Shown piece by piece: positions 25,701 through 34,700 of a stretch of 64,000 bases of DNA (positions are counted from its first letter, which is position 1; every line of letters starts with the position of its first letter). The position numbers are program-made. The stretch lies in assembly GCF_048403405.1 (NCBI RefSeq), contig NZ_CP183129.1. The stretch is one strand, 5' to 3'. Origin of the DNA: Escherichia coli (lineage in GTDB: Bacteria > Pseudomonadota > Gammaproteobacteria > Enterobacterales > Enterobacteriaceae).

Positions 25701-28700
25701 ATCGCCATTATGCCGCCTTTGAGCGGGCAACCTTCGAACAGGGCAAGCCGACACAGCTGCTGATGCTGACAGATAAGCAAATCGCCGATTTCCAGAAACA
25801 TTATCAGACTGAAGCGGAGCGTTTTCATATTCTGCCACCGGGGATTTATCCTGATCGTAAATATAGCCAGCAGCCAGCTAATAGCCGTGAAATCTTCCGT
25901 AAGAAGAATGGAATAACCGAACAACAATATTTATTGTTGCAGGTCGGTTCAGACTTCACGCGTAAAGGTGTCGATCGTTCCATTGAAGCACTTGCTTCGT
26001 TACCGGATTCGCTGCGCCACAACACATTGCTATATGTTGTTGGGCAGGATAAACCGCGAAAATTTGAGGCGCTGGCAGAAAAACGCGGCGTGCGCAGTAA
26101 TGTTCACTTCTTCTCGGGGCGCAACGATGTCTCGGAATTAATGGCGGCGGCGGATTTATTACTGCATCCTGCCTACCAGGAAGCGGCGGGAATTGTGCTG
26201 CTGGAAGCGATTACTGCAGGATTACCGGTACTAACAACAGCCGTTTGTGGCTATGCGCCTTATATTGTCGAGGCCAATTGCGGCGAGGCTATTGCTGAGC
26301 CATTCCGCCAGGAAACATTGAATGAGATTTTACGCAAAGCGTTAACGCAATTTTCATTGCGCCAGGCCTGGGCGGAAAATGCGCGACATTATGCTGATAC
26401 ACAAGATTTATACAGTCTGCCAGAGAAAGCGGCGGATATCATAACGGGTGGTCTGGATGGTTGAACTTAAAGAGCCGTTTGCCACGTTATGGCGCGGAAA
26501 AGATCCTTTTGAGGAAGTTAAAACTTTGCAGGGTGAGGTATTTCGTGAACTGGAAACTCGCCGTACTCTGCGCTTTGAAATGGCGGGCAAAAGCTATTTT
26601 CTCAAATGGCATCGCGGCACGACCCTGAAAGAGATAATCAAAAATTTACTCTCATTGCGGATGCCAGTATTAGGCGCAGACCGCGAATGGAATGCGATTC
26701 ATCGACTGCGGGATGTCGGCGTTGATACTATGTATGGGGTGGCATTTGGCGAAAAAGGCATGAATCCGCTTACCAGAACTTCATTTATTATTACCGAAGA
26801 TCTGACACCAACCATAAGTCTGGAAGATTACTGTGCTGACTGGGCGACTAACCCTCCAGATGTTCGCGTAAAGCGTATGCTTATTAAGCGTGTCGCGACG
26901 ATGGTGCGCGATATGCATGCTGCGGGCATTAACCACCGTGACTGTTATATCTGTCATTTCCTGCTGCACTTGCCTTTTTCCGGTAAGGAAGAGGAGTTAA
27001 AAATTTCGGTAATTGACCTGCACCGGGCGCAGCTTCGCACGCGCGTTCCACGTCGTTGGCGCGATAAAGATCTTATAGGGCTTTATTTTTCTTCGATGAA
27101 TATTAGCCTGACTCAGCGGGATATCTGGCGGTTTATGAAAGAGTATTTTGTCGCCCCGCTTAAAGACATTCTCAAGCAGGAACAAGGGCTGCTGTCGCAA
27201 GCAGAAGCAAAAGCCACAAAAATCAGGGAAAGAACGATTAGAAAATCGTTGTAATTTCCGGAGAGAAATATGAGTGCCCACTATTTTAATCCACAAGAGA
27301 TGATCAATAAGACAATCATCTTCGATGAAAGGCCAGCGGCGTCAGTGGCATCATCATTCCATGTTTCTTATGGCATTGATAAAAACTTTCTTTTTGGTTG
27401 TGGTGTTTCAATCACGTCAGTTTTGTTACATAACAACGACGTGAGTTTTGTTTTCCACGTTTTTATTGATGCTATCCCTGAAGCCGATATCCAGCGTTTA
27501 GCCCAATTGGCGAAAAGCTATCGTACCTGTATCCAGATCCATCTAGTAAATTGTGAACGGCTTAAGGCATTACCGACGACCAAAAATTGGTCTATTGCCA
27601 TGTATTTCCGTTTTGTAATTGCAGATTACTTTATTGATCAACAAGATAAGATCCTTTACCTGGATGCTGATATCGCCTGTCAGGGAAACTTAAAGCCGCT
27701 GATAACAATGGATCTTGCCAATAACGTTGCTGCTGTTGTTACTGAACGCGATGCTAACTGGTGGTCGTTACGGGGTCAAAGTCTGCAGTGTAATGAACTT
27801 GAAAAGGGTTACTTTAATTCAGGTGTCCTGTTAATTAATACACTAGCGTGGGCGCAGGAGTCCGTTTCTGCTAAAGCGATGTCGATGCTTGCTGATAAAG
27901 CCATCGTTTCCCGTTTAACCTATATGGATCAAGATATCCTTAATCTTATCCTGTTAGGGAAAGTTAAATTCATTGATGCTAAATACAATACGCAATTTAG
28001 TTTAAATTATGAATTAAAAAAATCATTTGTTTGTCCAATTAATGATGAAACCGTATTAATTCATTATGTCGGCCCGACAAAACCCTGGCATTACTGGGCC
28101 GGTTATCCAAGTGCGCAACCTTTTATCAAAGCCAAAGAAGCATCGCCCTGGAAAAATGAACCGTTAATGCGGCCAGTTAACTCAAACTATGCTCGTTATT
28201 GCGCCAAGCATAATTTTAAACAAAATAAACCAATTAACGGGATAATGAATTATATTTATTATTTTTATTTAAAGATAATAAAATGAAATTGAGAAAAGTT
28301 AAATGAATGAATTTATAAAAGAACGGTTTTCGTATTTAGCAGATAATAAAAAAGAAAACGCCCCAGAGCTAAATGTTTCCTACGGTATCGATAAGAATTT
28401 TTTGTATGGTGCTGGCGTTTCAATTTCTTCCGTTTTGATTAATAATTCAGATATTAATTTTGTCTTTCATGTTTTCACTGATTATGTGGATGATGATTAT
28501 TTAAAGTCATTTAATGAAACAGCAAAACAATTTAATACCTCAATTATTGTATATTTAATTGACCCCAAATACTTTGCTGATCTGCCGACGTCACAGTTTT
28601 GGTCGTACGCGACATACTTCAGGGTATTGTCTTTTGAATATCTGAGTGAAAGTATTTCCACACTGCTGTATCTGGATGCCGATGTTGTTTGTAAAGGAAG

Positions 28701-31700: not shown

Positions 31701-34700
31701 ATCCTATTTTAAATGAGTTTAATAGTCATCTTGAAAGTGAAAGGCTATTAACATCGGAAAAAAAACAACCTAGAACAAGGCTTCAGAAAAGAATGAAGTT
31801 TATACGCTCCTGGATAAAGGTGGCTTTTTTTTCTCTTTTGAAATGAGATTGTTAATTTCAATTTGTTGTGAGATATTAACGTGGAAGTAAAAATTGAGCA
31901 ATTTCGAAATAATAGCTGTAATTTTATTTTTTTATTGTATTTAATCGGTTTGTTGTTTGTGCCAATTGATCTTAATATCACCACTAAAATAATTAATGCG
32001 ACAGGTGCATTTTCTCTTTTCTTATTAATTGTAAATAAAAAGCACAATTATAATAAAAATGTCATTATATTAATTCTTGGTTTACTTCTTTTGGGTGCAA
32101 TGAACCTTATATGGTATGAATTTTATAAAACAGAAGATGTAGTATATAGAAATGCTTATCGAGGCTACCTTGAGTCTGGAAAACTATTAGTATTTAGCTC
32201 GTTGACATTTTTATTACTAAGTAAAAATAAATTCAGGCAAAATGAAAAACTACATTTTATTTCAGCTATCTTAGTTCAAATAATCATGCTATGTAGAGCA
32301 TATTATCAAGGGATATATTTGCATGCAGACCGCATTCCCCTCTCCGCCATGAATGGGAATATTGGTCAGATGGGGGCAGCGACTATTGCGGCTTATGTGA
32401 TTACATTTACAACTTTATATTCTTCAATTGTATTCATAAAAATGCAATCGAAATATAAATGGTTTCTATTTTATGCTAACTTTGCTTTAAGCTTTGCAGC
32501 AGTAATGATGACAGGAACGCGTGCGGCAATTTTCACATTCCCACTTATGATTATGGTCATATTATTTCTTCAGCATCGTGATCAAAAAGTGTTTTTATTT
32601 AAAGGATTGAGTGGTGTTTTTATATTGCTACTTGCTTGTGGTTTGATATTTAATAAGGAAATTGATAGGCGAATTAATTCATTAAAAGCTGATGTTATTT
32701 CATATGCTACAAAAAATAACAGTCAATCCTCGGTCGGAGCACGTTTTGCAATGGTTAATGCAGGAATTAAAGGAAGTCCTGATGGTTTTAATTGGCAATC
32801 TCTTGAGCAGCGTGCTGAAAAGATAAAAGCATTAAGTGCAGAAAATAATATTTATAGTGGAGCTTTATTATTCCTTGATGTACATATGCATAACGAAATT
32901 GTGGAATCTCTTTCCACGAAAGGAAAAATTGGTCTTCTTGTTCTTATTATGTTCTATGTTGCAATGATCTATTACTGTATACGAGAGAAAAAATATATAC
33001 TCTTGGTTTTCCCTGCTTCTATTATGTTATTTGGCATTAGTGATGTCATTACACATGCTAAACCAATACCGGCATCGTGGATTGTGTGCCTCTTCCTGTC
33101 TATATCGTTTTTGAGTAAAAATGAACCACAATAATAAAAGCGTTGACTAAGTAAGTGGGTATAATGCCCACTTACTATTTATTAAATTAATGTGATTTTT
33201 TTATAAACAGCCGCTGCTTCTAAATTATTTAAATTCATTAGCGGAGCCCTACAAACCACCTGATTCTTCCCATATCCGCCAATTAATCCCGGATCGGTTG
33301 GTCCATAAACCGTGATATTCGGTCTATCCAGTGCCGCCGTTAAATGGCTTAACCCCGTATCCACCGACACTACAAATTTAGCCCCGGCCAGTACGCGGGC
33401 AACGCCTTCCAGACTCATCTTCGGCAATACTTCAACATAAGCAAATCCTTCCGCCAGTCGTTTCGCCCGTTCTTCCTCATGCGGCGCGCCCCACGGAAGT
33501 TTAATCCGTATTCCTGAATCAGCCAGTAAACCAATCAATTCTCGCCAGTGTTCTTCCGGCCAGTGTTTATCATCACGGGTCGTCGCATGAAGAAATACGG
33601 CATATTCGCCAGCATCTGTAGGCAGGTTCGTCAGGAAATGTTGTGCGATAGCATAATCACCCTGGGTTTGCGGTTTGCTATAGCCCAAACTTTTGGCAAA
33701 CAGTTCGCGGGTGCGTTCTACGGCGTGCTGCTGTTTTGCAATATGATGCTTACGATTGTAAAACAGGCTGGCTAACGGTTCTCGAACGGTTTGCCAGTCC
33801 ATGCCATGCTTTACGCCATGCGCCAGACGCGTCACCAGCGCCGCGCTTTTTACCAGCCCCTGAGCGTCGATAACTGCGTCATAGTTCTCTGCTTGTAGCG
33901 CTTCACGAAACGCTTTGCGTTCAGCTTTTATGGGGGCCGAGAACCAGGCTTTACGCCAGCGACGTATTGCCACAGGAATAACTCGCTCAACGGCGGCGTG
34001 CCAGGAAGGAATCTGTGCGAACCCTTCTTCCACCACCCAGTCAAACTTAATCCCTGGGATTGCCTGCTGGGCATCAGTGAGTGCGGGCAGCGTATGGAGA
34101 ACATCGCCCATCGACGATGTTTTAACGATCATAACCCGCATCCGTCAGGCTTCCTCTTGTAACAATAGCGTGTTGAGTTCTTCCAGTACGCGCTGGGGAG
34201 TAATGTCGATCAAGCTCTGGTGATAACCCTCCGCAGCGTCACCTTTACGCACTTTGTGATAGCCGGTAATCAGACGGATCACGCGCGCTTTATGGGATAG
34301 CGGTGGTGTGAAGTCCGGGCTACTCGGACCATACAGGGCAACCAGCGGACGATTGAGCGCCGCCGCAACGTGCATCAGACCAGAATCGTTAGTGACAATG
34401 GCTTTACAGGCTGCAATCAGGATAACCGCTTGATCAAGCTGTGTTTCCCCCGCCAGGTTCCGGCACCATGCCTGCTGCTCGGTATTCAAAGCGGCAAGAA
34501 TCTCATTGCCCGCCTCATGATCTTTCGCCGAGCCAAACAGAACCACCTGATAACCTTCATCAATCAGCTGCTTTGCCAGTTCCGCATAGTGGTAGTGTGG
34601 CCAGCGTTTTGCCGGACCAAACTCCGCTCCGGGGCAAAAGCCAATCATCGGACGTTCTGATGAAAGCGAAAATTGATTACAGGTATATGATTTTTCACCT

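What the first reader, a model, noticed from the sequence alone, without database searches (positions are those of the whole stretch)
27270..33134. Outer-core waa genes indicate an R1- or R4-type LPS core; AT-rich cassette
After waaQ-G-P the order is GT8, GT8, waaY, GT8, GT25, waaL, matching the R1 (waaO-T-Y-W-V-L) or R4 (waaO-T-Y-W-X-L) layout and not K-12, which has waaS and waaB after waaP. The block is visibly AT-rich relative to the flanking inner-core genes, consistent with horizontal exchange of outer-core cassettes. I cannot tell waaV from waaX by eye.
Basis: partly seen in the sequence, partly recalled or inferred. Interest (0 to 1): 0.35.

Follow-up and report, generated by a model that had tools for sequence, protein, structure and literature searches.

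The report
E. coli R4-type LPS outer-core genes
This stretch is the ordinary, well-described R4-type version of the E. coli gene cluster that builds the outer core sugars of lipopolysaccharide. It is shared almost base for base with about one in eight complete E. coli genomes, so it is correctly spotted but not new.

Summary
Positions 27270-33134 carry six co-directional genes in the stated order: GT8, GT8, WaaY kinase, GT8, GT25 and an O-antigen ligase. They follow waaQ-waaG-waaP. The block is 34.6% G+C against 50.6% for the rest of the window.

The R1-or-R4 question resolves to R4.
- The published core-typing primers give the exact 380-bp R4 product (30882-31261). No R1, R2, R3 or K-12 specific primer site exists anywhere in the 64 kb.
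- The 257-aa GT25 protein carries the source names "beta-1,4-galactosyltransferase" and Q9ZIS2_ECOLX, which is WaaX.
- WaaL is 100% identical to the ligase of an R4-typed control strain, 35% to R1 and 31% to K-12.

The whole block is 98.5-99.9% identical in 690 of 5,426 complete E. coli genomes. Compared with R1, only about 30950-33240 is type-specific: the waaW 3' end, waaX, waaL and the waaC 3' end.

The one unusual detail is a 13-bp frameshifting deletion at the 3' end of waaY (221 instead of 230 aa). No complete RefSeq genome shares it. This is already known biology of low interest.

The parts
24224..24231 (+). ops element (GGCGGTAG) in the waaQ leader. It is the RfaH recruitment site of the long waaQ operon. 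The role is inferred from established knowledge.
   Evidence: Exact match 54 nt upstream of the waaQ start. The octamer occurs 5 times in the window against 1.1 expected, so its position, not its count, is the argument.
24285..25343 (+). waaQ (rfaQ), heptosyltransferase III. First gene of the operon.
   Evidence: NCBIfam RfaQ equivalog, 708 bits against a cut-off of 467. 99.1% nt identity to the R1 control.
25340..26464 (+). waaG, GT4 glucosyltransferase I (adds GlcI to HepII).
   Evidence: Annotated waaG in near-identical genomes. 99.2% nt identity to the R1 control.
26457..27254 (+). waaP (rfaP), heptose(I) kinase.
   Evidence: NCBIfam RfaP equivalog, 479 bits against a cut-off of 170. The start codon follows the RefSeq annotation of relatives.
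27270..28286 (+). waaO, GT8 alpha-1,3 hexosyltransferase (adds the second main-chain hexose).
   Evidence: NCBIfam PRK15171 equivalog, 610 bits against a cut-off of 461. Pfam GT8. 100% aa identity to the R4 control and 99.4% to R1, but only 50-54% to K-12/R2/R3.
28303..29298 (+). waaT, GT8 alpha-1,2 galactosyltransferase.
   Evidence: Pfam GT8. The exact sequence is named UDP-glucose/galactose:(glucosyl)LPS alpha-1,2-glucosyl/galactosyltransferase, Q9ZIS6_ECOLX. 100% identical to both the R1 and R4 controls.
29308..29973 (+). waaY (rfaY), heptose(II) kinase. This is a C-terminally altered allele of 221 aa instead of 230 aa.
   Evidence: NCBIfam RfaY, 384 bits against a cut-off of 248, matching profile positions 1-221 of 232. 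A 13-bp deletion relative to both R1 and R4 genomes shifts the frame...TKLKN* instead of ...TKLRKFIKKLKGKA*.
30013..31041 (+). waaW, GT8 alpha-1,2 galactosyltransferase. Its last roughly 30 codons are R4-specific.
   Evidence: Pfam GT8. Named UDP-galactose:(galactosyl)LPS alpha1,2-galactosyltransferase. 100% identical to the R4 control and 91.5% to R1. Identity to R1 collapses after about 30950.
30882..31261 (.). In-silico amplicon of the R4 typing primer pair (R1R4-R in waaW, R4-F in waaX), 380 bp.
   Evidence: Both primers match exactly, and the 380-bp size equals that published in PMC13293308.
31073..31846 (+). waaX, GT25 beta-galactosyltransferase. This is the R4-defining gene.
   Evidence: Pfam PF01755, 175 bits. 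The exact sequence is named Beta-1,4-galactosyltransferase, RepID Q9ZIS2_ECOLX. No homologue exists in the R1, R2, R3 or K-12 control loci. G+C is 29.8%.
31881..33134 (+). waaL, R4-type O-antigen (surface polymer) ligase.
   Evidence: Wzy_C E 1.8e-7. PDB 7TPG WaaL E 5.5e-8. The exact sequence is named Lipid A-core surface polymer ligase WaaL. 100% identical to the R4 control, 35% to R1, 31% to K-12, and no significant hit to R2/R3.
33150..33176 (.). 12-bp-stem hairpin in the 47-bp gap between the convergent waaL and waaC. It is a likely bidirectional terminator (inferred).
   Evidence: Terminator-like site found. Sequence read.
33182..34141 (-). waaC (rfaC), heptosyltransferase I. It is the last gene of the convergent rfaD-rfaF-rfaC operon, and its last roughly 20 codons belong to the R4-specific segment.
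   Evidence: NCBIfam RfaC, 628 bits against a cut-off of 437. 319 aa against 323 aa in R1. Identity to R1 recovers only from about 33240.
30950..33240 (.). The segment that distinguishes R4 from R1 (approximate breakpoints), 30.4% G+C.
   Evidence: 100-column identity to the R1 control drops from 89-100% to 27-59% between these points. G+C.

Best explanation
This is the central waaQ operon of an Escherichia coli chromosome carrying the R4 type of LPS outer core.

Functions, by established knowledge of the waa system (not tested here):
- WaaG puts the first glucose on heptose II of the inner core.
- WaaO adds the second main-chain hexose.
- WaaT and WaaW add two alpha-1,2-linked galactoses.
- The GT25 enzyme WaaX adds the beta-linked galactose side branch that distinguishes R4 from R1. 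R1 instead receives a beta-glucose from the unrelated GT2 enzyme WaaV.
- WaaP and WaaY phosphorylate heptoses I and II, and WaaQ adds heptose III.
- The type-matched ligase WaaL, the last gene of the operon, joins undecaprenyl-linked O antigen to the finished core in the periplasm.

Transcription of the long operon probably depends on RfaH, recruited at the ops site in the waaQ leader. It probably ends at the hairpin between waaL and the convergent waaC.

Shown here: the gene content, order and strand, the family assignments, the R4 typing result, the identity to R4 genomes, and the mosaic boundary against R1. Inferred from the literature: the individual sugar linkages, the RfaH dependence and the terminator.
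For: - The gene order and families are confirmed.
- In-silico PCR with the Trofimova et al. 2025 primers (PMC13293308) gives only the R4 product, exactly 380 bp.
- The same primers type five control loci as expected: R4 380 bp, R1 842 bp, R3 1,021 bp, K-12 1,442 bp and R2 610 bp.
- The GT25 protein's exact sequence is named Beta-1,4-galactosyltransferase/Q9ZIS2_ECOLX, and the ligase is named WaaL.
- The R1 control carries a 327-aa GT2 protein instead. It shows 17% global identity to the GT25 protein, i.e. unrelated.
- WaaL is 100% identical to the R4 control, 35% to R1 and 31% to K-12, with no significant hit to R2/R3.
- The whole block is present at 98.5-99.9% identity in 690 of 5,426 complete E. 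coli genomes. The waaO-waaW part is present in 2,528 genomes (R1 plus R4).
- The surrounding genes are the standard E. coli yicC-rph-pyrE...waaA / rfaCFD-kbl-tdh context, at 99.96% identity to strain GN02461.
- An ops site lies at 24224 and a hairpin at 33150-33176.
Against: Nothing contradicts the R4 assignment. Several caveats remain:
- The core chemistry was not and cannot be measured here.
- The literature read here disagrees on the WaaX linkage. The depositor's name and PMC13293308 say beta-1,4. The review PMC3526765 says beta-1,3.
- WaaL scores 31.5 bits on Pfam Wzy_C, just under the 31.7 gathering score.
- The waaY allele is frameshifted at its 3' end, so heptose II phosphorylation could be affected in this strain.
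- The prototype R4 sequence (strain F2513) was not available for direct comparison. Identity to it rests on the UniRef label.
Confidence: 0.96

Rival explanations
1. The locus is the R1 core type (waaO-T-Y-W-V-L). This is the commoner sister type, in which a beta-glucosyltransferase WaaV makes the side branch.
For: waaO, waaT, waaY and most of waaW are 94-100% identical in nucleotides to a validated R1 locus. The gene order and the waaL strand are the same.
Against: The window has no R1-F primer site with up to 3 mismatches. The gene at the V/X position is GT25 of 257 aa, not GT2 of 327 aa. WaaL is only 35% identical to the R1 ligase. From about 30950 to 33240 the window shows no meaningful similarity to R1.
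Confidence: 0.01
2. The strain is an R1/R4 hybrid like ECOR46. It would carry a second set of waaV plus R1-type waaL elsewhere, so the R4 call would be incomplete.
For: Such a configuration has been described once, for ECOR46 (PMC13293308). A few genomes hold up to 3 places matching the block, and 3 places lie on plasmids.
Against: The 64-kb window holds one uninterrupted waa locus with no IS element and no R1-specific primer site. The near-identical genomes listed have a single place each. The rest of this genome cannot be seen from the window.
Confidence: 0.02
3. The genes are R4, but the core made by this strain is modified, because the frameshifted WaaY (221 aa) is impaired. The result would be an R4 core lacking the heptose II phosphate.
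For: A 13-bp deletion replaces the last 11 residues (RKFIKKLKGKA) with KN. None of the 2,525 complete genomes holding this junction carries it, and only one has a related in-frame 12-bp deletion. The exact 221-aa protein is on record from a single genome.
Against: The Pfam WaaY and NCBIfam RfaY models are still matched over positions 1-221 with very high scores. Only a short basic tail is lost. The extra missing base relative to strain MSB1_6C adjoins an A-run and could be an assembly error. No functional data exist for this tail.
Confidence: 0.1

Closest known systems
E. coli R4 core-type waa locus (prototype strain F2513; waaQGPOTYWXL). It is found mainly in phylogroups D, F and G, e.g. ST38, ST405, ST648 and ST117 (PMC13293308).
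   Same: The gene content, order and strands are the same. WaaO, WaaT, WaaW, WaaX and WaaL are 100% identical to an R4-typed strain. The R4 typing amplicon is exact. Nucleotide identity is 98.5-99.9% to 690 complete genomes.
   Different: Only the 13-bp deletion at the 3' end of waaY differs.
E. coli R1 core-type waa locus (waaQGPOTYWVL).
   Same: The architecture is the same, including waaL as the last gene of the waaQ operon. waaQ through most of waaW are 94-100% identical, and low G+C is shared.
   Different: R1 has the GT2 enzyme WaaV (327 aa) where this locus has the GT25 enzyme WaaX (257 aa). The ligases are 35% identical. The waaW and waaC 3' ends differ.
K-12, R2 and R3 core-type waa loci.
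   Same: They share the flanking inner-core genes (waaQ, waaG, waaP, waaC, waaF) and have GT8 outer-core transferases and WaaY at 50-54% identity.
   Different: Their outer-core gene sets differ (rfaS/waaB/rfaJ/waaZ/waaU or waaK in K-12 and R2; waaJ/waaD in R3). Their waaL lies on the opposite strand in the rfaD operon, and they have no GT25 gene.
GT25 LPS glycosyltransferases of other Enterobacterales (Cedecea, Pluralibacter, Buttiauxella, Citrobacter amalonaticus, Leclercia and others).
   Same: They have the same length (257-258 aa) and the same Pfam family, with 56-71% identity over the full length. Several are named beta-1,4-galactosyltransferase.
   Different: There is a sharp gap between the E. 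coli cluster (at least 97% identity) and the nearest other genus (71%). Their genomic contexts were not examined.

Membership tests
E. coli R4 LPS core type | Outer-core gene order waaO-waaT-waaY-waaW-waaX-waaL after waaQGP, with waaL co-directional with the waaQ operon. | tested here: met
   ORF map and family scans. The annotation is identical to that of R4-typed strains.
E. coli R4 LPS core type | Presence of waaX (a GT25 beta-galactosyltransferase) at the position between waaW and waaL. | tested here: met
   Pfam PF01755, 175 bits. The exact sequence is named Beta-1,4-galactosyltransferase, Q9ZIS2_ECOLX.
E. coli R4 LPS core type | R4-specific typing PCR product (primers R4-F and R1R4-R, 380 bp). 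| tested here: met
   Exact primer matches at 30882-30901 (+) and 31243-31261 (-) give 380 bp. The primers were validated on five control loci.
E. coli R4 LPS core type | R4-type WaaL ligase. | tested here: met
   100% identical to the WaaL of the R4-typed strain 50579417, 35% to R1 and 31% to K-12.
E. coli R4 LPS core type | Core oligosaccharide chemistry (beta-galactose side branch on the outer core). | not testable with these tools
   Needs MS/NMR or an R4-specific monoclonal antibody. The sources read disagree on the linkage, 1,4 or 1,3.
E. coli R1 LPS core type | Presence of waaV (a GT2 beta-glucosyltransferase) and the 842-bp R1 typing product. | tested here: not met
   The window has no R1-F site with up to 3 mismatches. 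The R1 control has GT2 of 327 aa, Pfam PF00535, with no detectable similarity to the window's gene.
E. coli K-12, R2 and R3 LPS core types | Type-specific primer pairs, marker genes (waaU, waaK, waaD/waaJ), and waaL on the rfaD-operon strand. | tested here: not met
   The window has none of these primer sites. waaL is on the + strand here but on the opposite strand in the controls.
Glycosyltransferase family 25 (Pfam PF01755) | Score above the Pfam gathering threshold over most of the domain. | tested here: met
   175.2 bits against a cut-off of 24, profile positions 3-195 of 199. PDB GT25 chains 8xc8/8xlz match at E 2e-13.
O-antigen ligase WaaL (Wzy_C, PF04932) | Score above the Pfam gathering threshold. 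| tested here: inconclusive
   31.5 bits against a cut-off of 31.7, so marginally below. Membership is supported by PDB WaaL 7TPG at E 5.5e-8, by 35% identity to the R1 WaaL that scores 67.9 bits, and by the source name WaaL.

The most novel reading that the evidence does not exclude
The 13-bp frameshifting deletion at the 3' end of waaY would be real, not an assembly error, and would remove a basic C-terminal tail that the heptose(II) kinase needs. This lineage would then make an R4 core with altered inner-core phosphorylation, perhaps selected by phage or antimicrobial-peptide pressure. Its closest relative, MSB1_6C, carries an in-frame 12-bp deletion at the same spot.
Probability: 0.1. Interest if true: 0.2.

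Novelty: already known. Interest (0 to 1): 0.08.

Why it matters
Knowing the core type is useful routine annotation. It predicts which O-antigen ligase specificity, which core-targeting phages and which antibodies apply to the strain. R4 also points to a phylogroup D/F/G-like background, and the closest genomes are human clinical isolates. It teaches nothing new about LPS biology, because the R4 locus, its difference from R1 and its low G+C have been described since the late 1990s. Tools now type it automatically in thousands of genomes.

Tried and rejected
- **Prototype sequences and papers.** I looked for the prototype accessions and strain (AF019745, AF019746, F2513) in the paper library. 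Only a phenotypic paper on F2513 turned up, with no sequence comparison. The Amor et al. 2000 typing paper (PMC97256) is not held. Direct comparison with the F2513 prototype was therefore replaced by validated control genomes and the UniRef label.
- **R2 control.** My first choice, H49/L008 (strain GF4-3), carries waaU and only the K12-R primer site. It is a K-12-like or hybrid arrangement, so I replaced it with an ST167 strain that types as R2.
- **R1 and hybrid readings.** I considered and rejected R1. An in-window R1/R4 hybrid is also rejected, because there is a single locus with no IS element and no waaV.
- **Promoter scan.** The promoter-like scan of the operon is uninformative, with 28 sites against 31 expected.
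- **Origin of waaX.** The homologue search shows relatives in other Enterobacterales at no more than 71% identity, but no obvious donor.
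Full report

Yes. The six + strand ORFs lie exactly at the coordinates given: 27270-28286, 28303-29298, 29308-29973, 30013-31041, 31073-31846 and 31881-33134.

Pfam assigns GT8 (with the GT8 C-terminal domain) to the first, second and fourth ORFs. The third is WaaY, the 257-aa fifth is GT25 (175 bits against a cut-off of 24), and the sixth is the O-antigen ligase domain. NCBIfam identifies the upstream genes as RfaQ and RfaP, the first GT8 as the WaaO equivalog, the kinase as RfaY, and the convergent downstream gene as RfaC.

The block is 34.6% G+C and the rest of the window is 50.6%. No equal-sized window elsewhere in the 64 kb falls below 47.0%. The minimum, 29-30%, lies over the GT25 gene and the start of the ligase gene.

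**2. What organism and context?**

The window is Escherichia coli chromosome. Positions 14872-54141 align to strain GN02461 at 99.96% identity, with four mismatches and one gap. The context is the canonical one: yicC-rph-pyrE-...-mutM-coaD-waaA on one side and rfaC-rfaF-rfaD-kbl-tdh-waaH on the other.

**3. R1 or R4?**

Trofimova et al. 2025 (PMC13293308) published nine oligonucleotides that type the five core types in silico and in vitro. In the window, only R1R4-R (30882-30901, in waaW) and R4-F (31243-31261, in the GT25 gene) match, both exactly. They delimit 380 bp, the published R4 product. The R1, R2, R3 and K-12 specific primers have no site even with three mismatches.

As a control, I applied the same primers to loci fetched from complete genomes. 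Each gave the expected product:

| Control strain | Type | Product |
|---|---|---|
| 50579417 | R4 | 380 bp |
| RM9387 | R1 | 842 bp |
| O157:H7 | R3 | 1,021 bp |
| MG1655 | K-12 | 1,442 bp |
| an ST167 strain | R2 | 610 bp |

The exact 257-aa sequence is on record under the names "beta-1,4-galactosyltransferase" and UniRef representative Q9ZIS2_ECOLX. The exact ligase sequence is on record as "Lipid A-core surface polymer ligase WaaL".

BLASTP against the control loci gave these identities:

| Window protein | R4 control | R1 | K-12, R2, R3 |
|---|---|---|---|
| WaaO | 100% | 99.4% | 50-54% |
| WaaT | 100% | 100% | no orthologue; best GT8 hits 43-45% |
| WaaW | 100% | 91.5% | no orthologue; best GT8 hits 37-38% |
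| GT25 (WaaX) | 100% | no hit | no hit |
| WaaL | 100% | 35% | 31% to K-12; nothing significant to R2/R3 |

The R1 control carries a 327-aa GT2 protein between waaW and waaL.

**4. How common is it?**

The 5.9-kb block is covered at 80% or more in 690 of 5,426 complete E. coli genomes (12.7%). A partial match, the waaO-waaW part shared with R1, is present in 2,528 genomes.

A spread listing of the 9.9-kb waaQ-to-waaC query falls into clear coverage classes:
- 100% coverage: R4.
- 77%: R1, including E. coli B derivatives.
- 39%: R3, including O157:H7.
- 29% or 9%: K-12, R2 and related types.

PMC13293308 reports R4 mainly in phylogroups D (61%), F (51%) and G (85%), and in ST38, ST405, ST648 and ST117.

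**5. Anatomy of the R1/R4 difference**

A MAFFT alignment of the window against the R1 control shows 96-100% identity per 100 columns up to about 30870. Identity is 89% in 30872-30970, then 27-59% from about 30970 to 33222. It recovers to 84% and then 97-100% from 33223 onward.

The type-specific unit is therefore about 2.3 kb at 30.4% G+C. It holds the last roughly 30 codons of waaW, waaX, waaL, the intergenic hairpin, and the last roughly 20 codons of the convergent waaC (319 aa here, 323 aa in R1). This unit is much smaller than the 5.9-kb AT-rich block.

However, low G+C is a property of the entire outer-core region in both types, so it does not by itself date or prove a transfer.

WaaX relatives of the same length occur in other Enterobacterales at 56-71% identity (Cedecea, Pluralibacter, Buttiauxella, Citrobacter amalonaticus, Leclercia, Leminorella, Erwinia). 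There is a gap between these and the E. coli cluster, which is at least 97% identical. No donor can be named.

**6. How it works**

The enzyme roles follow from established knowledge of the waa system. They were not tested here.
- WaaG, WaaO, WaaT and WaaW build the Glc-Glc-Gal-Gal main chain.
- WaaX adds the beta-galactose branch that defines R4.
- WaaP and WaaY phosphorylate heptoses I and II, and WaaQ adds heptose III.
- WaaL ligates O antigen.

The sources disagree on the WaaX linkage. The depositor's name and PMC13293308 say beta-1,4. The review PMC3526765 says beta-1,3.

An ops octamer (GGCGGTAG) sits at 24224-24231 in the waaQ leader. This fits the known RfaH dependence of the operon. 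A 12-bp-stem hairpin at 33150-33176 fills the 47-bp gap between the convergent waaL and waaC, and is a plausible bidirectional terminator.

Weak structural anchors exist in the PDB. Bacterial GT25 chains 8xc8/8xlz match WaaX at E 2e-13 over the N-terminal 100 residues. The WaaL structure 7TPG matches the ligase at E 5.5e-8.

**7. The one unusual detail**

The window's waaY is 221 aa, while both the R1 and R4 controls have 230 aa. An alignment shows a 13-bp deletion (CGCAAATTTATTA) near the 3' end. It shifts the frame, so the protein ends ...TKLKN* instead of ...TKLRKFIKKLKGKA*.

Among the 2,525 complete genomes holding this junction, none has this deletion. Only strain MSB1_6C has a related deletion, 12 bp and in frame. 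MSB1_6C is also the closest match to the block, at 99.9%. The exact 221-aa protein is on record from a single genome.

The deletion is either a recent lineage-specific change or a one-base assembly error on top of the 12-bp allele. The kinase models are still matched over positions 1-221, so loss of function is not implied.

**8. Verdict**

The finding is correct and resolves to the R4 core type. It is textbook E. coli biology, present nearly identically in hundreds of sequenced genomes and typable by an existing tool. Novelty: already known. Interest: low.

Noticed in passing
window 29960-29966 (3' end of waaY, 29308-29973): A 13-bp deletion relative to all other R1/R4 genomes frameshifts the last codons of waaY (221 aa instead of 230 aa; ...TKLKN* replaces ...TKLRKFIKKLKGKA*). 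None of the 2,525 complete genomes holding this junction shares it. Strain MSB1_6C has an in-frame 12-bp deletion at the same place. It may be a real lineage marker or a 1-base assembly error.
   Followed up: partly
window 1-14871: A prophage-like island abuts the 3' end of yicC. It carries a tyrosine integrase (about 13424-14683, - strand), a TOPRIM/DUF927 primase-like protein, an antA/AntB antirepressor, an ash-family protein, and DNA ejection/injection proteins. The otherwise 99.96%-identical strain GN02461 has dinD-yicG-ligB there instead. The island is present at 80% coverage or more in only 182 of 5,426 genomes.
   Followed up: partly
window 12251-13500: This is the second-lowest G+C spot of the window (about 37%). 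It lies inside the island, over a hypothetical gene next to the integrase (L005 12363-13328).
   Followed up: no
window 51646-56874 (- strand): A 1,742-aa ORF is annotated in GN02461 as a YadA-like family protein (trimeric autotransporter adhesin). A low-G+C patch (about 38%) lies just beyond it at about 57000.
   Followed up: no
window 33182-33240 (3' end of waaC): The last roughly 20 codons of the inner-core gene waaC differ between R4 (319 aa) and R1 (323 aa). The recombination boundary of the type-specific module therefore lies inside a conserved essential-pathway gene rather than in the intergenic gap.
   Followed up: partly
L008 (E. coli GF4-3, NZ_CP053258.1) 12003-18893: This control locus has a GT8 gene where K-12 has rfaS, plus waaU. 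It carries only the K12-R primer site and lacks K12-F. It is probably one of the K-12/R2 hybrid or variant loci described in PMC13293308.
   Followed up: no
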